Positions 962-57,981 of a stretch of DNA of 64,000 nt are shown piece by piece. The number at the start of each line of letters is the position of its first letter. The first letter of the stretch is position 1. The translations under genes were made by a program, and so were the position numbers. Below the pieces are notes generated by a model. The model was not told the DNA's origin and made no database searches. It saw only the letters and a list, made by a program, of their open reading frames with translations. Source of the stretch: a virus; the IMG/VR virus record IMGVR_UViG_3300045988_179268, positions 160,001 to 224,000 of that record; one strand, written 5' to 3'.

Positions 962-1061
962 GTATTGCGCGTGAAGCCCCTTGGGAAAAACTCTTCAAAA
1001 ATCGTCCCCACTAAGTTGCATACGGTTTCAAGGCATTCCTGCCCCGCAGACAGTTAAAAGA

Positions 1062-1072
1062 TATGATACAAT
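1062..1072 (+). promoter_or_regulatory. extended -10 promoter motif (TATGATACAAT)
   Basis: Member of the recurring TGNGNTAYANT motif; 8 nt upstream of RNA module A. Confidence 0.55.
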
Positions 1073-1079
1073 CCAAGTA

Positions 1080-1290
1080 TCACCTCGCCTGTGAGAGACG
1101 GGAGAGGTACCTAAAATAAACGGACATTACCAACCCCAATAGCAATTGGGTGAAGATGGTGTCAAGACCAGGAAGGCTGGCGATAGCCAGCTGGAGGGTT
1201 ACCGTCAGGGCTAAGCCTTGACCCGCCTAACCGCGTAGAGGTATTTCCTTATGCGCGGGGGTGGCTCTAAGAGATGGCACATTGCAAAAT
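1080..1290 (+). ncRNA. structured RNA module, copy A (5' leader of ORF 1353 or independent ncRNA)
   Basis: Begins about 8 nt after the -10. Hairpin CACCTC-N17-GAGGT 1081-1109. Conserved blocks GTCAAGACCAGGAAGG and CTGGAGGGTTACCGTCAGGGC are shared with 42808-42978. Hairpin arms covary between copies. Confidence 0.6.
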
Positions 1291-1352
1291 GAGCACCCTA
1301 ACCTCAGGTGTAAACAGGTATAACTCATCCAGTAATTAAGAGAGAGGCACCC

Positions 1353-1835
1353 ATGTCATCCGAGAAGCACCCCTACGTACAGCGCGAGAACTTCGACTCT
1401 GGAGAACTCTACAAGTTCTTTAAGGATAACCTTATCGGTCGCAAAATCACCAAGATTACCCATGAAAGCATCAAGCTTGATAACGGTTATGTTGTCAAGA
1501 TTCACCCTAACTATGGTTGCGACTGTGGCAAGGGCAACTCATTTATTGACTTCCCCTCTGCCAAGGGCGCCTTAGATGCCGCCATCATGAACATTGAGTA
1601 TGAGGAGACGGAGTATGACGAGAAGTTCGGTGAGCCTGGCTTCAAAATCTTCATCCTCATGAAAAACAACAAGATTTGCTTCGAAGGCAACGACGCATCC
1701 GATGGTGAGCCTTACTATGGCTCCGGCTTCTGGGTGGACGCGACCATGCCCGCAGACCGCGAACGCGAAGCCGAGGAAGCTAAGCGTAGGGAAGAGGCGC
1801 GCCGCGCCCGCAATGGCGGTATCCTCTGGTGGTAA
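1353..1835 (+). CDS. hypothetical protein, 160 aa, charged R/E-rich C-terminus
   Basis: ATG preceded by GAGAGAGG; clean ORF. Confidence 0.7.
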   Translation: MSSEKHPYVQRENFDSGELYKFFKDNLIGRKITKITHESIKLDNGYVVKIHPNYGCDCGKGNSFIDFPSAKGALDAAIMNIEYEETEYDEKFGEPGFKIFILMKNNKICFEGNDASDGEPYYGSGFWVDATMPADREREAEEAKRREEARRARNGGILWW

Positions 1836-19702: not shown

Positions 19703-19713
19703 TGTGGTACAAT
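19703..19713 (+). promoter_or_regulatory. extended -10 promoter motif (TGTGGTACAAT)
   Basis: Overlaps the ORF-track ATG at 19712, so the tnpB start is 19739. Confidence 0.65.
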
Positions 19714-19738
19714 GAGCATAAATGAAAGGAGGAACCTG

Positions 19739-21010
19739 ATGCAACTGACGGAGAGGCACCTTGTTAAGCCGAACCATGAGCTTTATGCGACCCTGGATGA
19801 CTTAACGTTCAAGGCTAAGAACCTTTACAATCATGGGCTATATCTGTACCGTCAGTCGTATTTTGAACACAAAAAGAGCCCTGATGCGCCGGTCTTAACC
19901 TGGGTGGATATTGATAAGAGCCTGCGTAAACAGGGGCACGATGATATTCGTGCTTTGCCGTCTAAAGTCGCTAATGCTGTGCTAAAAAACTTAGGCGAAA
20001 ACATCACGTCGTTTTGGAAATTAGTGCGCCTAAAAAATAGTGGTAAGCTGGCACAAAAGCCTAAGCTCCCTCATTATCTTCATAAGACTGATGGGCGTTA
20101 CGCTGTGTCTTTTAATTATCAGACTTTTGGCAATAAACGTGGCGCTAACGGGGAGCTATTCTTATGCCCAAAGGGTATTAATCTCCCCATTCCTACTAAG
20201 ATTGCTAATCCTAAGCAGGTTCGTATTGTTCCCAACCTCAATAATTTTATTATTGAGGTTATTTATGACGCGGAAGAAAGTGCGCCTAAAAGCACGTCTA
20301 AATATGCTGGTATTGATTTAGGAGTAGATAATTTTGCTACCATCACATTCTCCACCCAAAACCAACCCCTCATTATTAAGGGTCTTGAATTAAAGTCCAT
20401 CAATCAGGGCTATAACCGTCTTATCGCCAAGGCACAGTCTTTGCTTCCAGGTTCCCAGAAGACAAGTCAGTCCATCCACCGTCTTTGGTCACGTCGCTCG
20501 TGGATTCTTCGCACGAAAATCCATCAGATGACAGCGTTCCTAGCTACTCTTTTTGACGAGATGCAGATTGAAAAAGTCTTCATTGGGAAAAATACTGGCT
20601 GGAAGCAGAACCTGCCTTTCGGCAAGAAGGTTAAACAGCGATTCGCATTTCTACCTTATGAAACTTTTATTGAGCAATTGCAGTATAAATGCCAATTGCG
20701 AGGAATTACTGTCATTACCCAGGAAGAATCCTACACATCTAAGGCGAGCTTCCTAGATAATGATGATATTCCTGTTTACGGTGAGACAGAGAATCCAAAG
20801 TTTTCTGGACGCAGGATTAAGCGAGGACTTTACAAAACCAGTGATGGGCGACTAATCAATGCTGACGTTAATGGGTCATATAACATTATGCGAAAAGGAC
20901 TGATGAACAATAATCAGTCCTTACGTGTGGACAACCCATTAATTCATCCCCTTGTCGTCAAGGGAATTGGGCAGGAATCTAACGATAAGTTGGTTCAACT
21001 ATACATGTAA
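19739..21010 (+). CDS. tnpB: TnpB-like protein (IS200/IS605 OrfB family), subclass without zinc ribbon, about 423 aa
   Basis: GIDLGVDNFATI (RuvC-I Asp), IGKNTGWKQ, EESYTSKASF, NADVNGSYNIMRKG (RuvC-III Asp); SD AAAGGAGG. Confidence 0.85.
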   Translation: MQLTERHLVKPNHELYATLDDLTFKAKNLYNHGLYLYRQSYFEHKKSPDAPVLTWVDIDKSLRKQGHDDIRALPSKVANAVLKNLGENITSFWKLVRLKNSGKLAQKPKLPHYLHKTDGRYAVSFNYQTFGNKRGANGELFLCPKGINLPIPTKIANPKQVRIVPNLNNFIIEVIYDAEESAPKSTSKYAGIDLGVDNFATITFSTQNQPLIIKGLELKSINQGYNRLIAKAQSLLPGSQKTSQSIHRLWSRRSWILRTKIHQMTAFLATLFDEMQIEKVFIGKNTGWKQNLPFGKKVKQRFAFLPYETFIEQLQYKCQLRGITVITQEESYTSKASFLDNDDIPVYGETENPKFSGRRIKRGLYKTSDGRLINADVNGSYNIMRKGLMNNNQSLRVDNPLIHPLVVKGIGQESNDKLVQLYM

Positions 21011-34193: not shown

Positions 34194-35750
34194 GTGTTGG
34201 CGAAAAATCAGACGTACAGAGCTTTTACCGTGCGCCCGATGCATATTCTAGACCTGAACGGCGAACTAATGGACAGTGCATCTGTCATGTCCCAGCTTGC
34301 CGCTGAGGTTCGAGACATTTCAGCGTATGCCACTTACGTGGTTCGTAATGACACGAAGCTTGCGGCTGACCTGGCTCAGGTTACTGCTGTTCAGCCAGCG
34401 GTTGCGGGTCGTCGGGCGGGTGTGACCATGCCTAACTTCCTTGCGACAGGCAAGTCGGGTAGGTCGCGTAAAGAGTTTCTGGTTCAGCATAACGTAGTTA
34501 CAGCTTTCCGGTCATGGCAGGAACGCATTAAAGCCATCGAGGGCACCTCTTCCAAGTACGTTTCCCAGGGGTGGAGGCGTACTGTGGATACATCTGCACC
34601 CACGTATGGGGATGCTGATTTCATCAACTTGGGCGCTGTAGATAAGCAGTATGCGGTCATCGAGAATAACCCTGTCGCGGATGGCAAAATTGTCCTCAGG
34701 ATGGTAATTTGCGGTCAGTGGTATCGTCTGATTTTCCCCTTTGATAACTCACGGTTCCCTGAGGGTAAAGTAACTCTACCTGTCATTAAAGTTGAAAATA
34801 ATCAACCTGTTTTCATCTTCACGGTCGTTACTGATAACCCTATCATTCAGTTTTCGGGTGACTACACTATCGGTGTAGACGTTGGCATCAATGACTATGC
34901 TACTGTCGTTGTTCGCAACAGTGCTACAGGGCAGATAACCCGGAAAACCACGCTCTCTCAGCGTGTTCATTCGCTCTGGAACAGTGTTCGTGCGTCTGAA
35001 CGGCAGGTTCGCGCGCTTAATAATAAAGCAGATAAGCTTATCTATGACCGTCAGGCTCACATGTCTGCGTTTGATGAGGCTCAGTTTCATCGCGAGGCGG
35101 CTTCTCGTAAGAAACGTGAGTTGGCGATTCTTGTGGCGCAGGAAATTGCCTACCTATCTCACCGTTGGAATAACGCTGTTGTGGTGGTTGAAGACTTGGG
35201 GTGGATTCGCAATACCATGAGTAACGGCAGGTGGAATCGCGGTGCTTTCGTACAGTGGCTCACTCACTATGTCACCCAGAATGGTGGCTGGGTTGTCGCC
35301 GTGAATGCGTCTAATACATCCCAGGTATGCCATGTGTGCGGTGAAAAGGTCACCCATCCTGAGTACAAGGTTTCCATCTGCCCCGAGCACGGTGACATGG
35401 ATAGGGACGTTAATGCCGCCGCAAATATTGCCTCTAGAGCTGTCCCGAAGGTGGATAAAGCTCGTAAGACTCGCGCTAAGAACCGCAAGCTACAGCCACA
35501 GGCGGCTCTTAAGACTCCGCCTGCCCGCGAAACTCTAAAGTATCCCGGCAGGGATAGGACTAAAAATGTTCCTACTCCGAAGAGGAAGAACCGCATTTCT
35601 GAGGAGGTGAATCTCCCCTTTAGCCCCGCTAGGGTGAATATGACTACGGTACTAGCGGACTGCGACACATACGGTGCCGTGGAGACCTCTAAGGCGGCTA
35701 TCAATCAGGGTAATGTAACTCGCGAATATGGGTTATGTAGCCTAAATTGA
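34194..35750 (+). CDS. tnpB: large TnpB-like RuvC nuclease with zinc ribbon and K/R-rich C-terminal extension, 518 aa (start GTG 34194 or TTG 34197)
   Basis: IGVDVGINDYATVV (Asp), VVVVEDLGWIRN (Glu), TSQVCHVCG...CPEHG (zinc ribbon), DRDVNAAANIASRA (Asp). Confidence 0.85.
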   Translation: MLAKNQTYRAFTVRPMHILDLNGELMDSASVMSQLAAEVRDISAYATYVVRNDTKLAADLAQVTAVQPAVAGRRAGVTMPNFLATGKSGRSRKEFLVQHNVVTAFRSWQERIKAIEGTSSKYVSQGWRRTVDTSAPTYGDADFINLGAVDKQYAVIENNPVADGKIVLRMVICGQWYRLIFPFDNSRFPEGKVTLPVIKVENNQPVFIFTVVTDNPIIQFSGDYTIGVDVGINDYATVVVRNSATGQITRKTTLSQRVHSLWNSVRASERQVRALNNKADKLIYDRQAHMSAFDEAQFHREAASRKKRELAILVAQEIAYLSHRWNNAVVVVEDLGWIRNTMSNGRWNRGAFVQWLTHYVTQNGGWVVAVNASNTSQVCHVCGEKVTHPEYKVSICPEHGDMDRDVNAAANIASRAVPKVDKARKTRAKNRKLQPQAALKTPPARETLKYPGRDRTKNVPTPKRKNRISEEVNLPFSPARVNMTTVLADCDTYGAVETSKAAINQGNVTREYGLCSLN

Positions 35751-40289: not shown

Positions 40290-40300
40290 TGTGATACTAT
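40290..40300 (+). promoter_or_regulatory. extended -10 promoter motif (TGTGATACTAT)
   Basis: The promoter plus downstream hairpin are homologous to 42790-42838. Confidence 0.65.
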
Positions 40301-40306
40301 ATTCAC

Positions 40307-40420
40307 AGCACCTCATCTGCAAAAACAGGAGGGGTGCCGTGAAACAAACTGTCGAGGAAACCCCCGACCCGCCCTGCACGTGGACGACTCTAACTCATCC
40401 CGGCATATTATTTAGGAGAA
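40307..40420 (+). ncRNA. structured RNA module, minimal copy C (5' leader of the 40430-41707 operon)
   Basis: CACCTC-N16-GGGGTG 40309-40336, then GTCGAGG-AAA-CCCCCGAC-CCGCC 40351-40373. These match the first hairpin and the GTCAGGGC..GAC-CCGCC hairpin of copy A. Confidence 0.5.
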
Positions 40421-40429
40421 ATCATAACC

Positions 40430-40987
40430 ATGCCCCTTTCTACTACTGCAACTTCCATTACTGGTAAGCTTTCTACCACTTTCACCGAACTTCTTGCATC
40501 CAAGGCTTCCTCCCCTGCCTCCCGAAAGGCGAAGATGGATACCGCGACCCGCAATTTTGTCGATACTCTCTTGGACGCTGGCGAGAAGGGTCGCACTCTT
40601 TCACGCCTCGCCTACGATGAAGGCATGTCTGATTCTAAGTGGCTGAGCGAGATGCTGGAGGCTAAGCGCCAGCGTATCGGTAAGCCGGACGAACCGCTCA
40701 CCGGGGTCGAGAACGCCCGCACTAAAGCCATTCTCGCAATCAACACTAAGAAGCGTCGCAAGGCTCTAGGTATCGTCTTCGCCGCCAATTCAATCATGGC
40801 GGCATCCCTGGAAGACGACTTCATCGCCCTGCTTGAGATTGAGGACGACTCCACCTGGATTGAATACGCCCTCACTCGCGGCACTCTTTCACTAATGACG
40901 AACCTTGCTAAGTTTGGCAACTATCTGGCTGACAAGAATATCGCCAAGCTAAAGCGTGAACAGGCAGAACGCGGCGGCAGTCTGTAG
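40430..40987 (+). CDS. hypothetical protein, 185 aa
   Basis: SD AGGAGA; immediately upstream of the recombinase. Confidence 0.7.
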   Translation: MPLSTTATSITGKLSTTFTELLASKASSPASRKAKMDTATRNFVDTLLDAGEKGRTLSRLAYDEGMSDSKWLSEMLEAKRQRIGKPDEPLTGVENARTKAILAINTKKRRKALGIVFAANSIMAASLEDDFIALLEIEDDSTWIEYALTRGTLSLMTNLAKFGNYLADKNIAKLKREQAERGGSL

Positions 40988-40999
40988 GGAACAGTCAAT

Positions 41000-41707
41000 A
41001 TGACCACTCGAAAGCTATTGCCTACTAAACGCATTTATGGGTATGTTCGTGTCAGTACCGCCGGGCAGAATCCTGACCGGCAGGTGTACAACATTCACGA
41101 ATGGGTCAAGGAGAACTATGGTGAAGACGTTTACCACAGCTTAACTCTTGACGGCGCAGATTTTGTCACGGCTGATAAGGTTAGTGGCGCTACCTCAGCT
41201 AATGAGCGTGACGGGCTATCCTATATCCTCGACAATATCCAGCCGCACGATGTGCTTATCACACCTACGGTTGAGAGGTTGGGGCGTGACTCAAAGCATG
41301 TCACAGAGGTGAGGGATATGCTTGAGAAGCGTAAGGTCATCGTTATTTATAGTGACGAGTTGCCGCTTCTTAGCACCCTTGCTACGGAGTCCGGTGAGTA
41401 TCCGCCGGAAAGCTCACTTGAAGCTAACCTTACGCATAAGCTTATCTCGGGTGTAATTTTCGATATTCTGGCGCGTGTTGCCGCATACGAGTACGAAAAC
41501 AGCCGCAAAAGACAGCGCCAAGGCATCGAACGAGCTAAGGCGCGCGGCGCGTACAAGAAACCTAAGTCTCTTACTAACGACAAGCTAGAGGATGCGCGCC
41601 GCAAGATTGACATGGGTATCCCAAAGGCTGAGGTAGCACGTCAGCTTAAGATTAGCCGCGCCACTTTGCGCCGCTACCTTGATGGAATCAGCGTTCCCGA
41701 CGAATAA
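41000..41707 (+). CDS. small serine recombinase (resolvase/invertase family) with C-terminal HTH, 235 aa
   Basis: IYGYVRVSTAGQNPDRQ catalytic-Ser motif, VERLGRD, C-terminal HTH KAEVARQLKISRATLRRYL. Confidence 0.9.
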   Translation: MTTRKLLPTKRIYGYVRVSTAGQNPDRQVYNIHEWVKENYGEDVYHSLTLDGADFVTADKVSGATSANERDGLSYILDNIQPHDVLITPTVERLGRDSKHVTEVRDMLEKRKVIVIYSDELPLLSTLATESGEYPPESSLEANLTHKLISGVIFDILARVAAYEYENSRKRQRQGIERAKARGAYKKPKSLTNDKLEDARRKIDMGIPKAEVARQLKISRATLRRYLDGISVPDE

Positions 41708-41709
41708 TT

Positions 41710-41758
41710 ACAATTCACCCCTCTATGACTAAGCTTCATAGAGGGGTGAATTGTTTCC
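41710..41758 (+). terminator. 19-bp hairpin terminator
   Basis: ACAATTCACCCCTCTATGA / TCATAGAGGGGTGAATTGT followed by TTCC. Confidence 0.8.
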
Positions 41759-41773
41759 ATACACTCGCTAATC

Positions 41774-41784
41774 TGTGGTACAAT
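41774..41784 (+). promoter_or_regulatory. extended -10 promoter motif (TGTGGTACAAT)
   Basis: GCTAATCTGTGGTACAATTATT. Confidence 0.7.
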
Positions 41785-41824
41785 TATTTCTGTAAGGAAT
41801 TTTAGGCAACAGAAAGGCATAGTC

Positions 41825-42763
41825 ATGGAACTTTCCCACGAGGAAATCGCAGACGCTATGCACGACCACTACCGTGAACTCACGCGACTTGAGTATAGTC
41901 TCGTCAGCGTAAGCCTTGAAGCAAGTAAGGCACTCAAGCACTACACGGCAATTATTACCAAATCCATCAACCTCATGGGGTCAGGTCAGTGGTACCCCTG
42001 GCAGGAAGACCGCCACCTACGCATGGTCTGGGCAGTAGTGAAGCAAACTCTCTACAAGACCGACCACTACATCCACCACCTACACAACGACATGAGTGAA
42101 ATGCTCACTAACTGGCATGAAAACTCCAACTGCGTTGAAACGTGCCAGCTTCTACTAGAAGAAGCTGAACAGTATGCGACCACTCGCTTCATTAAAAACG
42201 CTAAGCAGGTCATCCACCGCTGGAAAAACGTTTCACCCATCATTGACGAGATTCTATCCCAGGAGCGTGTACAGCCAGCCGAATACCCACTAGAGGTTCA
42301 CTGCGACGACTACATCACAATGATTAAGGGGTACCTGGAAGCAATGGATGCGGCTACCGACGGAATGATTCAAGCCATGAACATTGTCCGGCGCACAAAG
42401 ACCGTGTACGACCTATGGGATGCTGAGACAATCAACATGAGCACCGGGAAGCCATACCGCAACCGGCAGTACATCCACGACTTCCTCAAGCTTTTCAATT
42501 ATGCGGCAAATGATTCATACCATGAGTACCTGAACGCCCACCATGAGATTCTTTTCTGTTCCGAGACATACAGTCTAGGCGGTGGCTGGGCTGACAACCC
42601 GGAAGGGTTCGCCGGTCGCCTGGAACGCATCACTAAATGGCAGAACGAAAGCCCTGCCATCACTGTAGAAAGTGCAACTAAGGACTTGCGACGCTACAAG
42701 GAATGGTACCCTGACATGCTTAATCTGGTGAATGAAATCGCGGAGAATAATGGGTTTTATTAG
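41825..42763 (+). CDS. hypothetical protein, 312 aa
   Basis: SD GAAAGG. Confidence 0.75.
   Translation: MELSHEEIADAMHDHYRELTRLEYSLVSVSLEASKALKHYTAIITKSINLMGSGQWYPWQEDRHLRMVWAVVKQTLYKTDHYIHHLHNDMSEMLTNWHENSNCVETCQLLLEEAEQYATTRFIKNAKQVIHRWKNVSPIIDEILSQERVQPAEYPLEVHCDDYITMIKGYLEAMDAATDGMIQAMNIVRRTKTVYDLWDAETINMSTGKPYRNRQYIHDFLKLFNYAANDSYHEYLNAHHEILFCSETYSLGGGWADNPEGFAGRLERITKWQNESPAITVESATKDLRRYKEWYPDMLNLVNEIAENNGFY
42705..42759 (+). repeat. direct repeat copy 1 (functional 3' end of 41825-42763)
   Basis: 44 of 55 nt identical to 42981-43035. Confidence 0.8.
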
Positions 42764-42789: not shown

Positions 42790-42800
42790 TGTGATATTAT
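42790..42800 (+). promoter_or_regulatory. extended -10 promoter motif (TGTGATATTAT)
   Basis: TAAAATCTGTGATATTATATT, 9 nt upstream of RNA module B. Confidence 0.6.
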
Positions 42801-42807
42801 ATTCGAT

Positions 42808-42978
42808 AACACCTCGCCCGTGAGAGACAGGAGAGGTGGATAATCTAAACGGGTAGGTAGCTTCGGTTGCCTGTCAAGACCAGGAAAGTTAGCCCTCTTG
42901 GGTTAGCTGGAGGGTCACCGTCAGGGCGAAGCCCTGGCTCATCCCCTGGGTGGCTCTCCCTTACACACGGGGATGACT
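42808..42978 (+). ncRNA. structured RNA module, copy B (no ORF downstream)
   Basis: CACCTC-N17-GAGGTG 42810-38; GGTAGC-TTCG-GTTGCC 42856-71; GTCAAGACCAGGAAAG; GTTAGCCC-TCTT-GGGTTAGC 42888-907; CTGGAGGGTCACC; GTCAGGGC-GAA-GCCCTGGC 42920-38; TCATCCCC/GGGGATGA 42939-76. Confidence 0.6.
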
Positions 42979-42980
42979 CA

Positions 42981-43035
42981 GGTATGCCGACTTGCTAAAT
43001 CTAGTGAATGAAATAGCCGAAAATAACGGGCTTTA
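42981..43035 (+). repeat. direct repeat copy 2: orphan, diverged copy of the last 17 codons of 41825-42763
   Basis: Would encode YADLLNLVNEIAENNGL* versus YPDMLNLVNEIAENNGFY*; a TGA lies immediately upstream in frame. Confidence 0.8.
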
Positions 43036-43070
43036 ATCACCCGACCATATACTACACTCTCCGGCAGTGC

Positions 43071-43125
43071 ATAATAAATGGGAAAACCAATCAATGTAAT
43101 TTTGATTGGTTTTCCCATTTATTAT
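43071..43125. terminator. bidirectional 24-bp perfect hairpin terminator
   Basis: ATAATAAATGGGAAAACCAATCAA / TTGATTGGTTTTCCCATTTATTAT. Confidence 0.8.
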
Positions 43126-43141
43126 AGGCTAGTCGCCTACT

Positions 43142-47756: not shown

Positions 47757-48095
47757 ATGAGTAACACCACCTTTGAACTTCGATATGCCCGGATGCACAC
47801 CCGCAAGTACCTCAAGGGAAAAATGTCGCCCGCCTACGACAATAGGGACGTACACGATGCCTCCCTCAACACGAAGTACGACATGACCGTCACTATGAGC
47901 ATGGTTGAGCGCGACAGCTGGCGCTTACACAATGTGACTGTCCCTAGAGAGAATGTCACTGTTATTGGCGACCTTCGGAACGGGGAGCCTTACGTCATTG
48001 CTGATGATGATTTCAAGCGCTTTGAGGTGCATATTGACATGACCTTTGTTCACGGTGACATGATTAATTTTGTAGTCCCTGAGGTTAATTTCTAA
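47757..48095 (+). CDS. hypothetical protein, 112 aa
   Basis: SD AAAGGA; the stop codon overlaps the end of the TnpB element. Confidence 0.65.
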   Translation: MSNTTFELRYARMHTRKYLKGKMSPAYDNRDVHDASLNTKYDMTVTMSMVERDSWRLHNVTVPRENVTVIGDLRNGEPYVIADDDFKRFEVHIDMTFVHGDMINFVVPEVNF

Positions 48096-48153
48096 CCGTA
48101 ACTGGGAATAACGAAAATCGCGAAACGATACTCGCTATTCCCAGGTTAATTTT

Positions 48154-48327
48154 AGGGTTTTTCAACCCAAGGTCTTACGGCTAACCTACTCCACATAAGC
48201 TCACCTGGTTTCAACTAAAGAGCCACACAACCAGACTTATCACTTACGCTTCTAAGGAGAACACTACCTTAAAGGGAGATGCGCCACTGCCTTGCGTGGC
48301 TACATCTGTATAAGGCTGTATGTAAGT
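48154..48327 (-). ncRNA. candidate omega-RNA scaffold region of the TnpB element
   Basis: Non-coding stretch between the tnpB stop and the terminal hairpin, which is where omega RNAs are encoded in characterised TnpB loci. No transcript evidence. Confidence 0.3.
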
Positions 48328-49644
48328 TTATTTTACGCTATCTTTGTAGCCTTGTCCACGTCGCGCGATAACGTATGCGGCACCAACATGTGTGTTTAGT
48401 TTCATTGTTGGGCAGTAGAGTTGTTTCGCTAACCATGATGTCCACGCGGGGTTTACACGCCTCACAGATATAGCGCTCCTGTAGGCGCGTCGCTCGATTT
48501 TGTCTATAAACTGCCGATACGCAAGTGAGTGTAGCATCTCGTTGTACTTCCGCCCCTGTTTACGTAGGGTGCTTGCTTTTGCAGTCTTGAAGTTAAGGTC
48601 CTCAACGCAGATGTCCTTTCCTGTCGTTAGCGCGCGTTCCACAACCTTTGTCGCAATCAACTCTAAATCTGTGGACGTTCTATTTCCTGCCTTGAAACGA
48701 TAGGGTAGGAGTTGCGTGTCGGTTAGGTGTCCATACTGGTTCGTTTCCGCTAGGGTCACGAAGCCCTTGTTGAAGTCTAAGCCAATGGTTCCATGCGTGG
48801 AACGTGTCTGAAAGTCGCTCTTGTCCATCTGAATTTCAAAGGTGCAGTACAGGTAGAAACGTCCACGCTTTTTAATAATTTTGAAGCTCAAAGGGGTGTT
48901 GCGCTGGCGGAGCGCCTCTTTAATCCACCTTTTATGGTGGTTAAAATACACGCGACCGTAAACATACTTATCCTTAGCGTTCTTAAACCCGCCAATATCC
49001 TTGCGCAACCTCAGTTCAAACTGATTGTTCTTCGAGTTAAACCACAAATGCAAGATTTGGTTACCTGATGCTTCACTCTTCGAGCCAATAAACGACATAT
49101 GGGCGTCGCGTCTATCTATAAAAGCTTGGTAATCGGTTTGTAAGAGCCGCTTGCTACCAAAGCAGATTTCGTGCCGCCCAGATTCTATCTGGTAGCTCAA
49201 GTTTGCTGATTTTTGCTTCAGCTTATTGAGCTTACTTTTCTGAGCGACAAGCTTCCGTTTAAGGTTTCGGTACTTACCTAGACAGACAGGCAAACCTGTC
49301 TTTAGCGCGGACTTTCCAACCTCTAGGGCGTGGATATTGGCTTCTAGGACTTTGATTTTGTGGGCTAGTTGCTTTTGCTCATGAGCTTTCAGCTCTTTTA
49401 GTGCGTTGAGCTGACCTTGCGCATCGGCAATGATGGAGTTCGCTGTTCGTTTCAGAATTCCGTAAGTTTTTTGAAGATGGGTGTTGTAGCTAGATTTGTT
49501 AAAATCTGGACTGTTTCTGATAGCGTAGAAAGTTTTTCGCTGAGCCTGCGCGTAAGTCCCGCGAGCGCTCTCGAAATAATCGATAATGTCTTGGTTATTC
49601 TTTTCATGAAGCTGTGTCACAGTAGTGAACTTACGCTTAATCAC
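48328..49644 (-). CDS. tnpB: TnpB-like protein, divergent: no zinc ribbon, His where the RuvC-III Asp is expected, 438 aa
   Basis: GTG start behind AGGGGAG. IGLDFNKGFVTLAE (Asp), ICVEDLNFKT (Glu), RVNPAWTSW, NTHVGAAYVIARRG. Confidence 0.8.
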   Translation of the reverse strand: MIKRKFTTVTQLHEKNNQDIIDYFESARGTYAQAQRKTFYAIRNSPDFNKSSYNTHLQKTYGILKRTANSIIADAQGQLNALKELKAHEQKQLAHKIKVLEANIHALEVGKSALKTGLPVCLGKYRNLKRKLVAQKSKLNKLKQKSANLSYQIESGRHEICFGSKRLLQTDYQAFIDRRDAHMSFIGSKSEASGNQILHLWFNSKNNQFELRLRKDIGGFKNAKDKYVYGRVYFNHHKRWIKEALRQRNTPLSFKIIKKRGRFYLYCTFEIQMDKSDFQTRSTHGTIGLDFNKGFVTLAETNQYGHLTDTQLLPYRFKAGNRTSTDLELIATKVVERALTTGKDICVEDLNFKTAKASTLRKQGRKYNEMLHSLAYRQFIDKIERRAYRSAISVRRVNPAWTSWLAKQLYCPTMKLNTHVGAAYVIARRGQGYKDSVK

Positions 49645-56412: not shown

Positions 56413-57981
56413 ATGCGACACATGTACTTCCTCACAGGGGCACCTGGTTCTGGTAAGAGTACTTACGTCAAGAATGTAATTAAGCGACACAAACTGGGTC
56501 GCGTCATCTCCTGGGATGACTACCGCAATCGTTTCCGTGACCCTCACAATGATGAAACCTACGACATCCCCGTATATGCCGAAGAAGACGGGGTTGCTGT
56601 AGAAACCAGTGTGAAGCCACTCACCAAGGCGCAAGAAAAGATGGCAATCGACATCTCCTATATGGAAACTGAAATGCATGTACGCAACGGTGAAACCATC
56701 TTCATTGATAACACCAACACCAAGGTTCGCAATATGCGCGGCTTCCTCGACCTTGCGGAACGGTACGCCTACAAGGTATGGTTCATCGACATTCAGGGCG
56801 ACCAGACCCTAGAGCAGATTCTTGAACAGAACGCTTACCGCACCGGATACAAGCGAGTCTCTGATGAAATTGTGTCCAACATGCACGCACAGAACATTGA
56901 GCTACGTGCGAACTGGCGCAACATCTTCCAGGACAAGGATAACGTCAAGGGGTATATTGCCCCTGATGCCCTCATTGATAATCTCAAATCCTACGTGAAC
57001 TTCCAGAAGCCTGTTCGTTCACTCACTATGGGCACAGACTTTGGCAGGCAATACGAGCGAGTATGCATCTTTGGCGACGTTCAGGGAATGGGCGACACTC
57101 TAGAAGCCGCAATCCATAGCCTTTCACCTGACAAGGGGCTACACGACATGAGCACCCTTTGGATTTTCATTGGCGACCTGTTCGACCGAGGCAACAACCC
57201 CGTCAAGGTGGCAGAACTTGTACTACCTCACCTGCTTAACAACGCCCGCAACGTGAAGCTCATCAACGGCAACCACGAGTCGCAGGTACTTAACGCATAC
57301 GCAGGCGCTAACACCAATAAAGACACCCTGGACACTATTCGGGCACTTAGGGCGGCTGGGTATGGAGATGCCTGGGTCAAGACGGCTTTAACTGAGGCAC
57401 TACCCGCCGCCGAGCTTCGCCTCGACAGTGTAGATGAAGACGGTAGTATCTACAGCAAGTACCTGTACCTAACCCACGCGGGCGCACACCCGAAACTACA
57501 CGTCGATTCACTACACATCAAGGAGAATGGTTCCGGTAGGGGCAACCCCTACGGTAGCATCTACCGCTTACCTCTCAAGTATTGGGAAACCGGCTATAGT
57601 GACATTGAAGACTTCCGATACGGGTACAGCACCTACAAAGGTTGGGCTGAACCCCTCAACGACCTCTATGCTAAGGCGACCCGCCTGCACGTAGAGAACG
57701 GTGGGCACCCCAAGAGTGAACTTGTCGCAGTGTGTGGGCACCGTGGCGGATACGGCGACCCTGCACAGTACTCGAACCTTATTCCCCTGGAGTCCGAGGT
57801 AGAGTACGAGGGTGGCTCCCTTAGCGTTGCGGTATTTACCGCCCGCAAGGTGAAGCCTGTCACCTTTGGCTATCGGAAGACTTTTAAGCATGTTTGGGAT
57901 TATGAGCGACGCGAATACCCAGGCAATAGTGATGCTGAAAGGTTCTGGGTTTCCACTTCGGAGAAGCGCCAGAGCAAATAG
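56413..57981 (+). CDS. bifunctional P-loop (polynucleotide-)kinase / calcineurin-like metallophosphatase fusion (Pnkp-like), 522 aa
   Basis: Walker A FLTGAPGSGKST at the N-terminus. Metallophosphoesterase motifs IFGDVQGMGD, GDLFDRGN, NGNHE, LTHAG, CGHRG in the C-terminal half. Confidence 0.8.
   Translation: MRHMYFLTGAPGSGKSTYVKNVIKRHKLGRVISWDDYRNRFRDPHNDETYDIPVYAEEDGVAVETSVKPLTKAQEKMAIDISYMETEMHVRNGETIFIDNTNTKVRNMRGFLDLAERYAYKVWFIDIQGDQTLEQILEQNAYRTGYKRVSDEIVSNMHAQNIELRANWRNIFQDKDNVKGYIAPDALIDNLKSYVNFQKPVRSLTMGTDFGRQYERVCIFGDVQGMGDTLEAAIHSLSPDKGLHDMSTLWIFIGDLFDRGNNPVKVAELVLPHLLNNARNVKLINGNHESQVLNAYAGANTNKDTLDTIRALRAAGYGDAWVKTALTEALPAAELRLDSVDEDGSIYSKYLYLTHAGAHPKLHVDSLHIKENGSGRGNPYGSIYRLPLKYWETGYSDIEDFRYGYSTYKGWAEPLNDLYAKATRLHVENGGHPKSELVAVCGHRGGYGDPAQYSNLIPLESEVEYEGGSLSVAVFTARKVKPVTFGYRKTFKHVWDYERREYPGNSDAERFWVSTSEKRQSK

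What the first reader, a model, noticed from the sequence alone, without database searches (positions are those of the whole stretch)
1073..1352. Structured RNA module copy A starts at a consensus promoter and forms a 270-nt leader of ORF 1353
The 390-nt gap between ORFs 140-961 and 1353 holds a promoter at 1062-1072. About 8 nt later, a series of helices begins:
- CACCTC-N17-GAGGT (1081-1109)
- a bulged hairpin (1129-1160)
- the block GTCAAGACCAGGAAGG
- GCTGGC-GATA-GCCAGC (1176-1191)
- the block CTGGAGGGTTACC
- GTCAGGGC-TAA-GCCTTGAC (1204-1222)

Copy B at 42808-42978 keeps the unpaired blocks almost identical. Its hairpins have different sequences that still pair: GGTAGC-TTCG-GTTGCC, GTTAGCCC-TCTT-GGGTTAGC and GTCAGGGC-GAA-GCCCTGGC, with G-U wobbles. 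This is the pattern expected for a functional RNA, not a protein-binding DNA repeat.

I cannot assign it to an RNA family I know.
Basis: seen in the sequence. Interest (0 to 1): 0.7.

Follow-up and report, generated by a model that had tools for sequence, protein, structure and literature searches.

The report
New jumbo-phage RNA interleaved with tRNAs
The flagged sequence is one copy of a previously undescribed, tightly folded small RNA gene that a lineage of giant bacteriophages carries in a dozen or more copies per genome where that could be counted, mostly alternating with their tRNA genes, and whose function is still unknown.

Summary
Copy A (1081-1267) and copy B (42810-42979) are two members of one structured RNA family, and 40309-40390 holds a decayed third copy. 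Each sits 8-9 nt behind an extended -10 promoter.

A covariance model found 131 matches in 36 sequence sources, from about 25 metagenome contigs and two 300-360 kb viral genomes. No bacterial genome matched, and no Rfam 15 family matched.

Five helices are supported by covariation: 94% of cells pair and 21 of 32 pairs show double changes. The junction nucleotides are nearly invariant, and UUCG loops point to selection at the RNA level.

In related phages the module alternates with tRNA genes on the tRNA strand, 19-32 nt (mode 27) after a tRNA 3' end in 67 of 69 cases. Elsewhere it starts at a promoter.

It is not a dedicated leader of ORF 1353. Orthologous loci lack it, and homology resumes exactly at its last base.

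Best reading: an autonomous, high-dosage stable RNA gene cassette, released from tRNA-operon transcripts or made from its own promoter, that acts through its invariant core. Its partner and function are unknown. Ribozyme, cis-element and selfish-element readings remain open.

The parts
1064..1072 (+). Extended -10 promoter of copy A (TGaTACAAT). It ends 8 nt before the module.
   Evidence: Sequence. It belongs to the same promoter class as the repeated phage promoters of the window.
1081..1267 (+). Module copy A, 187 nt, in the intermediate-length form (its P5 carries a short inner hairpin). P1 1081-1109; A-rich J1/2 1110-1122; P2 1123-1163; P3 outer 1166-1169 with 1197-1200; P3 inner 1175-1181 with 1186-1192; P4 1204-1211 with 1215-1222; P5 1223-1228 with 1259-1264, with inner hairpin 1231-1258; 3' tail CUC 1265-1267.
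   Evidence: CM hit of 150.5 bits, E 2e-41. Fold. Consensus structure and covariation. The 3' boundary is fixed by comparison with empty sites.
1268..1352 (+). Native 5' leader of ORF 1353. It is not part of the module and is conserved in relatives that lack the module.
   Evidence: Alignment with L068 and L069 and with L031.
42792..42800 (+). Extended -10 promoter of copy B (TGaTATTAT). It ends 9 nt before the module.
42810..42979 (+). Module copy B, 170 nt, a stand-alone RNA gene. It has a first P5-like closure at 42956 and a second 3' motif ending in GGGGATGACTC at 42979.
   Evidence: CM hit of 131.3 bits, E 7e-36. Fold. Orthologous copies in L024, L026 and L040 are 91-92% identical, with compensatory changes in P2.
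42982..43036 (+). Relic copy of the 3' end of ORF 41825-42763 (..YADLLNLVNEIAENNGL*). It is a recombination scar directly after module B.
   Evidence: Reading. The upstream gene ends ..YPDMLNLVNEIAENNGFY*.
43070..43128 (.). Long inverted repeat, a likely bidirectional terminator, that ends the copy B transcription unit.
   Evidence: Sequence. The same arrangement occurs in L024 and L026.
40292..40300 (+). Extended -10 promoter of copy C (TGaTACTAT). It ends 8 nt before the element.
40309..40390 (+). Copy C, a decayed or internally deleted module (P1, J1/2, P4, poor P5, ..GACTC). It now serves as the 5' UTR of ORF 40430-40987.
   Evidence: CM E = 0.04. Sequence. The orthologue in L026 has further non-compensated changes.

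Best explanation
The element is one copy of an autonomous small RNA gene, a 'module' of 134-275 nt. It is specific to one lineage of uncultivated jumbo phages of roughly 300-360 kb.

Shown:
- It folds into five helices in series. P1 is a 5' hairpin, P2 and P3 each have variable tips, P3 carries a conserved AGGA/GAG internal loop, and P4 and P5 are adjacent. Near-invariant purine-rich junctions join them.
- It has sharp ends, (Y)ACCUC... at the 5' side and ...GGCUC at the 3' side.
- It occurs many times where copies could be counted (at least 14 in one genome).
- In tRNA arrays it takes the place of 'the next tRNA', 19-32 nt after a tRNA 3' end on the same strand. It usually closes a run of one to four tRNAs.
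- Outside arrays it begins 8-12 nt after a phage promoter.
- It moves between loci as a cassette with exact boundaries.

Inferred:
- The RNA is released as a discrete stable species. Release would come from transcription initiation or from the tRNA-processing nucleases that cut the upstream tRNA. RNase P might also recognise P1, whose stack and U..A loop resemble an acceptor/T-arm minihelix.
- It accumulates to high dosage together with the phage tRNAs.
- It acts in trans through its invariant core, by binding a protein or RNA partner of the translation or tRNA apparatus, or by self-assembly. This would resemble the other phage RNAs that sit in tRNA islands (ROOL, GOLLD, T4 RNA C and D).

In the window, copy A has been recombined in front of ORF 1353, so it doubles as the 5' part of that mRNA. 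Copy B is the solitary remnant at the position where relatives carry the tRNA array. The partner and the biochemical activity are not known.
For: Family and structure:
- 131 CM matches in 36 sources, plus 9 more in further loci of one viral genome.
- Covariation: 94.4% of cells paired, 21 of 32 pairs with double changes, 262 compensatory cells against 10-46 in slid controls.
- G-U pairs are frequent and strand-specific, and UUCG tetraloops occur in P2 and P3.

A discrete unit:
- Similarity among close copies starts about 3 nt before CACCTC and stops at CTC.
- An empty-site comparison puts the 3' edge at 1267|1268.

Position:
- 67 of 69 tRNA-to-module gaps are 19-32 nt, which is the modal tRNA-to-tRNA spacing. 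Module-to-next-tRNA gaps are 56-434 nt.
- In L073 tRNAs and modules alternate strictly.
- 18 of 46 non-array copies have a strict extended -10 ending 8-12 nt upstream, against 0 of 46 array copies. The background expectation is 1.3%.

Independence from any neighbouring gene:
- Downstream genes are heterogeneous.
- Copy B and its three orthologues are promoter-module-terminator units. They are 91-92% identical, as conserved as the flanking coding gene (90.5%), with changes confined to stems (compensated) and loops.

Precedent:
- ROOL and GOLLD are phage RNAs 'often near tRNA islands' with unknown function (PMC12286853).
- T4 RNAC and RNAD are 'RNAs of yet unknown functions' (PMC9697503).
Against: - No transcript data exist, so the accumulation of a discrete RNA and its ends are inferred only.
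- A purely trans-acting RNA would not obviously need many separately conserved copies. That pattern fits a local (cis) role or selfish spread at least as well.
- Copies A and C are physically part of mRNA leaders.
- No partner protein is consistently adjacent.
- The minihelix/RNase P idea rests on geometry alone.
Confidence: 0.4

Rival explanations
1. The module is a self-cleaving or otherwise catalytic RNA that processes tRNA-operon transcripts. It would cut at or near its own boundary and so separate itself and the flanking tRNA precursor. This would be functionally analogous to the HDV-like theta ribozymes that sit at the 3' end of phage tRNAs.
For: - It lies at a fixed short distance downstream of tRNAs on the tRNA strand.
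- Its invariant unpaired nucleotides are framed by covarying helices with variable tips, which is typical ribozyme or aptamer architecture.
- Both ends are sharp and conserved.
- The window encodes an RNA ligase/kinase-phosphatase that could handle 2',3'-cyclic phosphate and 5'-OH ends.
Against: - No match to any ribozyme family in Rfam, even at E <= 10, on 15 copies.
- The fold is five hairpins in series and lacks the P2 needed for an HDV-like nested pseudoknot.
- Theta ribozymes abut the tRNA within 1 nt, whereas this module is 27 nt away behind a spacer hairpin.
- Half of the copies have no tRNA upstream and start at a promoter.
Confidence: 0.18
2. The module is primarily a selfish repeat, a mobile or recombination-prone cassette. 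Its RNA fold would be required for its own propagation, for example as an RNA intermediate copied back into DNA, or as a recognition structure for a phage-encoded enzyme. It would have no function for the phage.
For: - It is restricted to one phage lineage yet massively amplified.
- One subfamily with no more than 12% divergence sits at six or more unrelated loci.
- Presence/absence polymorphism has exact boundaries, and there is a duplication scar at copy B.
- Short solo copies of the 3' motif lie in tandem behind full modules, like 5'-truncated copies.
- Decayed copies exist (C; 40-57-bit hits).
- Modules mediate deletion or insertion of tRNA units between arrays.
Against: - There are no terminal inverted repeats, no target-site duplication and no conserved flanking target motif.
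- No reverse transcriptase or HUH transposase was found among 77 window ORFs.
- Orthologous copies retained in different phages stay structurally intact with compensated changes, which indicates selection after insertion.
- The placement relative to tRNAs and promoters is too regular for random insertion.
Confidence: 0.2
3. The module is a cis-acting, promoter-proximal transcription or stability element. It could be a put-like processive antiterminator or a 5'-terminal protective structure, serving whatever lies downstream (tRNAs or ORFs).
For: - It is always at or near an RNA 5' end, either a transcription start site or a tRNA 3'-processing site.
- Copies A and C sit in mRNA leaders.
- tRNA arrays are rich in terminator-like hairpins: 16 found against 6.6 +/- 2.7 expected.
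- Many individually conserved copies are what a local function predicts.
Against: - Copy B and its orthologues have nothing downstream except a terminator.
- In arrays the module closes a run of tRNAs, and promoter-like TATAAT boxes precede the next tRNA.
- At 134-275 nt with five helices it is far more elaborate than known elements of this kind.
Confidence: 0.12
4. One reading: a dedicated regulatory leader (riboswitch or attenuator) of ORF 1353.
For: The module lies between the promoter and ORF 1353. Its architecture looks like a riboswitch aptamer.
Against: - Orthologues of ORF 1353 lack it.
- There is no terminator or SD-sequestering platform between the module and the ATG.
- Downstream genes across copies are unrelated.
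- Most copies precede no ORF.
Confidence: 0.05
5. The module is the guide-RNA scaffold (omega RNA) or a miniature derivative (PATE) of the IS200/IS605-type elements whose TnpB-like genes are present in the window.
For: - The window has three TnpB-like ORFs and one IS605-orfB-I RNA.
- The 3' boundary is exact and followed by variable sequence, as with a guide.
Against: - No module lies next to any TnpB ORF, and the CM finds only A, B and C in the window.
- There is no similarity to IS605-orfB-I or HEARO.
- No conserved TAM-like motif sits at the left flank.
- Modules have their own promoters or follow tRNAs.
Confidence: 0.03

Closest known systems
ROOL and GOLLD RNAs (ornate phage/prophage RNAs near tRNA islands)
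   Same: Both are phage-encoded, strongly structured non-coding RNAs of unknown function located in or next to tRNA gene clusters. No protein partner has been identified (PMC12286853).
   Different: - ROOL and GOLLD are about 600-800 nt, with multiple pseudoknots.
- The module is 134-275 nt and has five simple helices.
- It is present in at least 14 copies in one genome, at a fixed 27-nt spacing after tRNAs.
- There is no sequence or structure match (Rfam).
Theta (minimal HDV-like) ribozymes adjacent to phage tRNAs
   Same: Both are small structured RNAs repeated at phage tRNA genes, downstream and on the same strand, so a role in tRNA transcript processing is plausible (PMC10879173).
   Different: - Theta ribozymes are about 50-60 nt nested pseudoknots whose cleavage site abuts the tRNA 3' end within 1 nt.
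- The module is 3-5 times larger, has a different fold and lies 27 nt away.
- The module also occurs without tRNAs.
- Catalysis has not been tested.
T4 RNA C and RNA D (stable RNAs of the T4 tRNA cluster)
   Same: Both are small stable phage RNAs of unknown function (PMC9697503). From my own knowledge, the T4 RNAs are encoded in the tRNA gene cluster and co-transcribed with tRNAs.
   Different: - The T4 RNAs are single-copy and have no detectable similarity to the module.
- They are not interleaved with each tRNA.
PeSL-type mobile regulatory cassettes of T4-like phages (own knowledge: Arbiol, Comeau and Krisch 2010)
   Same: Both are short repeated promoter-associated cassettes that mark the borders of shuffled gene modules in large phage genomes. 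Here, modules mark junctions of swapped genes and of tRNA unit indels.
   Different: PeSLs are about 60-nt stem-loop-plus-promoter DNA motifs without a conserved RNA tertiary core. The module is a covarying five-helix RNA.

Membership tests
Any Rfam 15 family (4227 models) | A covariance-model score at or near the family threshold | tested here: not met
   - Whole window at gathering threshold: only IS605-orfB-I elsewhere.
- Window 1000-1400 at E <= 10: only a 10-bit antisense lncRNA artefact.
- L029, with 13 modules, at E <= 10: only tRNAs and tRNA-overlapping noise.
Riboswitch / cis-regulatory leader | Consistent association with a functionally related downstream gene, plus an expression platform | tested here: not met
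   - Downstream ORFs are unrelated or absent.
- Orthologues of ORF 1353 lack the module.
- No terminator lies between the module and the ATG.
HDV-like / theta ribozyme | A nested double pseudoknot (P1, P1.1, P2, P3, P4) with the cleavage site at the 5' end, abutting the tRNA 3' end | tested here: not met
   - The consensus fold is five serial hairpins.
- Only 1 nt is available for a P2 strand inside P1.
- The distance to the tRNA is 19-32 nt.
- No HDV-family hit.
HDV-like / theta ribozyme | Self-cleavage activity | not testable with these tools
   This needs in vitro transcription and a cleavage assay.
TnpB omega RNA / IS200-IS605 PATE | Location at the 3' end of a tnpB gene or between IS ends, with a conserved target/TAM motif at the left flank | tested here: not met
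   No module lies next to the three TnpB-like ORFs. The left flanks are heterogeneous.
tRNA / tmRNA | A cloverleaf or tRNA-like domain with a tag ORF | tested here: not met
   ARAGORN finds nothing in the window. In the related loci it calls tRNA genes only, none at a module position.
Group I intron | A P3-P7 pseudoknot core, with exon continuity restored on removal | tested here: not met
   - No Intron_gpI hit at E <= 10.
- The flanks of A are not continuous with the empty site on the 5' side.
- B is flanked by a duplicated gene end, not by split exons.
ROOL / GOLLD-like tRNA-island RNAs (a loose 'kind', not a homology family) | A phage-encoded, covariation-supported ncRNA located in or next to tRNA clusters | tested here: met
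   There is no homology to ROOL or GOLLD themselves.
ROOL / GOLLD-like tRNA-island RNAs | Homo-oligomeric RNA-only assembly | not testable with these tools
   This needs native gels, SEC-MALS or cryo-EM of in vitro transcripts.
Integron-like attC recombination site | A structure needed only in single-stranded DNA, next to the recombinase, with conserved R/L boxes at the cassette ends | tested here: inconclusive
   - A serine recombinase gene sits at the head of the arrays, and modules bound shuffled units.
- Against this, resolvase-type enzymes act on duplex sites, the UUCG tetraloops point to RNA, and there are no R/L-type inverted core sites.

The most novel reading that the evidence does not exclude
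The module is a new functional class of RNA dedicated to phage tRNA operons. One form would be a new self-cleaving or processing ribozyme. Another would be a self-assembling or tRNA/ribosome-binding RNA made in stoichiometric excess with the phage tRNAs. Its P1 would mimic an acceptor/T-arm minihelix, so that the host tRNA-processing machinery excises it like a tRNA.
Probability: 0.25. Interest if true: 0.9.

Novelty: new variant of a known kind. Interest (0 to 1): 0.72.

Why it matters
- If the RNA is functional, it is an unusually well supported new bacterial-virus RNA class: over 100 copies, strong covariation and an invariant core, with no match in Rfam 15 or in the paper library searched.
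- I know of no other RNA with this genomic arrangement, alternating one-for-one with tRNA genes at tRNA-like spacing.
- It joins ROOL, GOLLD, theta ribozymes and T4 RNA C/D as evidence that phage tRNA islands are hot spots for RNAs whose roles are unsolved.
- Its small size (134-190 nt for the short form) makes it far easier to test biochemically and structurally than the giant RNAs.
- It shows that tRNA arrays of jumbo phages are built from repeated tRNA-plus-module units that recombine.
- It also gives a marker for recognising this uncultivated phage lineage.

Tried and rejected
- **Rfam searches.** At gathering threshold and at E <= 10, on the window, the locus and a 13-copy array, nothing relevant turned up.
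- **blastn against phages.** Both copies against 50,697 deposited phage genomes gave no match.
- **Bacterial and archaeal genomes.** A pattern scan of 185,579 genomes gave only chance hits in high-GC coding DNA.
- **Paper library.** A full-text search for the conserved words found none.
- **DGR template repeat.** I considered this for the duplicated gene end after copy B. Only 5 of 10 differences fall at template adenines and no reverse transcriptase is nearby, so I rejected it (read by eye).
- **Homology between the two upstream ORFs** (140-961 and 41825-42763). None was found.
- **Extra pseudoknots.** A mutual-information scan gave high values only from subfamily structure. The candidate ACGG/CCGU pairing is compatible but not compensated (alignment).
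- **K-turn, T-box, RNase P, SRP and cobalamin-box resemblances.** These were recalled from memory. None is supported by Rfam scoring, so I did not pursue them.
- **Sigma-70 scan of the array.** No enrichment of full -35/-10 promoters: 5 found against 6.3 expected.
- **Empty sites for copies B and C in viral contigs.** No relatives were found.
- **Reverse transcriptase or Y1 transposase among 77 window ORFs.** None was found, and only 9 Pfam families hit at all.

Full report
**1. The observation**

The sequence is as described.

In copy A an extended -10 box (TGaTACAAT, 1064-1072) is followed 8 nt later by these elements:
- CACCTC-N17-GAGGT
- a long bulged hairpin
- the block GTCAAGACCAGGAAGG
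- the hairpin GCTGGC-GATA-GCCAGC
- the block CTGGAGGGTTACC
- the hairpin GTCAGGGC-TAA-GCCTTGAC

Copy B (from 42810) has the same unpaired blocks and different stems that still pair. The long blocks occur only at A and B in the window, and never in shuffles. Single-sequence folds give the same helices, with z-scores of -4.0 and -3.2.

It keeps only P1, the A-rich linker, P4 and a poor P5, and it is decaying in a relative.

**2. Homologues**

- Nothing matched in 50,697 deposited phage genomes.
- A gapped pattern taken from the two invariant blocks found copies in two IMG/VR genomes of 307 and 361 kb.
- The same kind of pattern found copies in about 25 metagenome contigs of up to 358 kb.
- In 185,579 bacterial and archaeal genomes it gave only chance hits in high-GC coding DNA.
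- The window itself is positions 160,001-224,000 of a 319-kb JGI contig.
- Only 9 Pfam families hit its 77 ORFs.
- Its genes are 90-95% identical to those of the two IMG/VR genomes.

The element therefore belongs to one lineage of uncultivated jumbo phages.

**3. Structure**

I aligned 31 distinct copies. RNAalifold gave five helices:
- P1, a 5' hairpin
- P2, with a conserved GACA/UGUC base and a variable tip
- P3, with an outer GACC/GGUY helix, an internal loop with invariant AGGA and GAG, and a variable hairpin
- P4, GUCAGGG/CCCUGAC
- P5, read from the sequences, in which CCAYC pairs with GRUGG and is followed by the tail CUC

P5 shows compensated variants: CCACC/GGUGG, CCGCC/GGCGG, CCAUC/GAUGG, and CUCAUC/GAUGAC in the B type.

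A covariance model found 131 matches in 36 sources. On the 96 distinct sequences:
- 94.4% of cells pair.
- 21 of 32 pairs have changes on both sides.
- 262 cells are compensatory.
- Slid controls give 31-51% pairing and 10-46 compensatory cells.
- No shuffle out of 500 reaches the observed values.

G-U pairs are common, and UUCG tetraloops cap P2 and P3 in many copies. The selected structure is therefore on the transcribed strand and at the RNA level.

Module length is bimodal: about 134-149 nt, or about 206-243 nt. The long form carries a second conserved domain inside P5. That domain ends in a highly conserved UUUUCCCCGUACACGYGGGGAUGGCUC.

A mutual-information scan gave no convincing extra pseudoknot.

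**4. Not a known family**

Rfam 15 gives nothing for copy A at E <= 10. It gives nothing for 13 copies in L029. In the whole window it gives only an unrelated IS605-orfB-I RNA. The conserved words are absent from the paper library.

**5. Genomic arrangement**

This is the most informative result. In relatives the module lies inside large tRNA arrays, on the tRNA strand.
- L029 has 13 modules among 22 tRNAs in 8 kb.
- L073 shows strict alternation tRNA-module-tRNA-module.
- Of 69 cases where a tRNA is followed by a module, 67 have a gap of 19-32 nt, with a mode of 27.
- That spacing is also the modal spacing between adjacent tRNAs.
- The spacer is a small, non-conserved hairpin.
- The distance from the module core to the next tRNA varies from 56 to 434 nt.
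- That stretch often holds extra solo copies of the 3' motif and a TATAAT-like box.
- A module typically closes a run of one to four tRNAs.

Of the 46 distinct copies with no tRNA called upstream, 18 have a strict TGnTAnnnT ending 8-12 nt before the module, where 1.3% is expected. None of the 46 array copies has one. Others have near-consensus boxes or a second recurrent motif (CCCACTnTC..GAAGGCTTCTATGCTCAG).

The RNA's 5' end is therefore always close to a transcription start or a tRNA 3'-processing site.

**6. It is a cassette, not the leader of ORF 1353**

- Orthologues of ORF 1353 in L068 and L069 (94% and 91% identity) have no module within 3 kb.
- They have an ordinary promoter (TGTGGTAAACT).
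- Their similarity to the window begins exactly at 1268, one base after ...GGTGGCTC.
- In L031 and L028 a module of another subtype lies about 1 kb upstream, in front of a different ORF.
- Close relatives of copy A (L030, L032, L043, L046) lose all similarity about 3 nt before CACCTC and right after CTC. The exception is L032, which shares A's promoter.
- Downstream genes are unrelated across copies.
- One subfamily with no more than 12% divergence occupies at least six different contexts.
- Differences between orthologous arrays look like recombination between modules that removed or added a tRNA unit.

**7. Copy B**

The genes upstream of B are ORF 40430, a serine recombinase and ORF 41825. 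In relatives these same genes sit at the head of the tRNA array. The window has no tRNA at all.

B is followed by a 55-nt relic of the 3' end of ORF 41825 and by a strong inverted-repeat terminator.

The same promoter-module-terminator unit is kept in L024 and L026, and in L040 with the P5 insert. In L024 and L026 it is 91-92% identical, the flanking gene being 90.5% identical at the DNA level. Changes are confined to compensated stem positions and loops.

B is therefore a maintained stand-alone RNA gene. This argues that the RNA does something on its own.

**8. Mechanism**

What is shown:
- a discrete, conserved, structured RNA unit
- high copy number
- placement like a tRNA in tRNA operons, or directly at promoters
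- cassette-like shuffling

What I infer as most likely (confidence 0.4):
- It is released as a stable RNA. Release would come from initiation or from the nucleases that process the upstream tRNA.
- It accumulates with the phage tRNAs.
- It acts through its invariant purine-rich core on a partner that is not yet known.

This would put it with the other enigmatic RNAs of phage tRNA islands (ROOL and GOLLD; T4 RNA C and D).

One speculative detail concerns P1. It has 6 bp, a G-A (or G-C) layer, and 4-5 bp with a U-GAGAG-A loop. That gives it the stack length and a T-loop-like U..A of an acceptor/T-arm minihelix. RNase P might therefore cut at its 5' edge. This is geometry only.

Rivals:
- A processing ribozyme (0.18). 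Its prior is raised by the theta ribozymes at phage tRNAs. It is not supported by fold or spacing.
- A selfish repeat whose fold serves its own spread (0.20). Points in favour are the narrow distribution, the recent multi-locus subfamily, the truncated 3' pieces and the exact boundaries. Points against are the absence of a transposition signature, of an RT or of a transposase, together with post-insertion conservation.
- A cis-acting promoter-proximal element (0.12). Copy B and the operon-terminal position argue against it.
- A dedicated leader of ORF 1353 (0.05).
- A TnpB omega RNA (0.03).

These readings are not all exclusive. A useful RNA can also spread as a cassette.

**9. Novelty and score**

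The RNA family is new to Rfam 15 and to the literature I could search. The general kind, a structured phage RNA in tRNA islands with unknown function, is known. The small size, the copy number and the one-for-one interleaving with tRNAs at fixed spacing are new.

I rate it a new variant of a known kind, with interest 0.72. I give 0.25 probability that it is a genuinely new functional class, either catalytic or self-assembling.

Noticed in passing
window 48092-48316 (-) and ORF 48328-49644 (-): A full-length IS605-orfB-I RNA (RF03065, 195.9 bits) lies directly 3' of a 438-aa ORF. That ORF has no Pfam TnpB domain and only marginal similarity to the other TnpB-like ORFs. It may be a divergent RNA-guided nuclease with its omega RNA inside a jumbo phage.
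   Followed up: partly
window 19712-21010 (+) and 34194-35750 (+): Two further TnpB-like ORFs (phrog_506; PF07282 and PF01385). That makes three IS200/IS605-type genes in 64 kb of a phage genome. Their RNAs were not examined.
   Followed up: no
window 8913, 19155, 28021, 31621, 39075, 51890, 54263 (+), also 4834 and 45813: A repeated promoter family, TTGC-N-AAATCTGTGGTAGACTATAG (extended -10), sits in front of many genes. The modules use the same promoter class.
   Followed up: partly
window 40430-42763 (+); L037, L053, L055, L057: ORF 40430, a resolvase-type serine recombinase (41000-41707) and ORF 41825 form a conserved block. In relatives this block sits at the head of the tRNA array, and the window lineage has no tRNAs there. 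The recombinase may be involved in gain or loss of the array.
   Followed up: partly
window 42982-43036 (+): A 55-nt relic encodes an alternative C-terminus (YADLLNLVNEIAENNGL*) of ORF 41825-42763. It is a scar of the recombination that placed module B.
   Followed up: yes
window 56413-57981 (+): A fused kinase (AAA_33), phosphoesterase and RNA ligase-like ORF, of the RNA-repair (Pnkp/Rnl) type. Its closest phage relatives are only about 27% identical.
   Followed up: partly
L004 2940-3260 and 3810-4300; L029 array: The tRNA arrays of relatives contain T-arm-like fragments (GGTTCGAGTCC and similar) and other 200-500 nt gaps that hold neither a called tRNA nor a module. These may be unusual or split tRNAs, or further RNA genes.
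   Followed up: no
L029 700-3200 (-), L004 4860-4970 (+), L050 7420-7540 (+): Solo copies of the module's 3' motif (UUUCCCCGUACACGCGGGGAUGGCUC) are repeated one to three times in tandem behind full modules, and only on the tRNA strand.
   Followed up: partly
L028, L031, L039, L054 (about 30 nt upstream of the modules): A second recurrent upstream motif, CCCACTnTCnGnGAAGGCTTCTATGCTCAG, replaces the extended -10 box at some modules. It may be a promoter of another temporal class.
   Followed up: no
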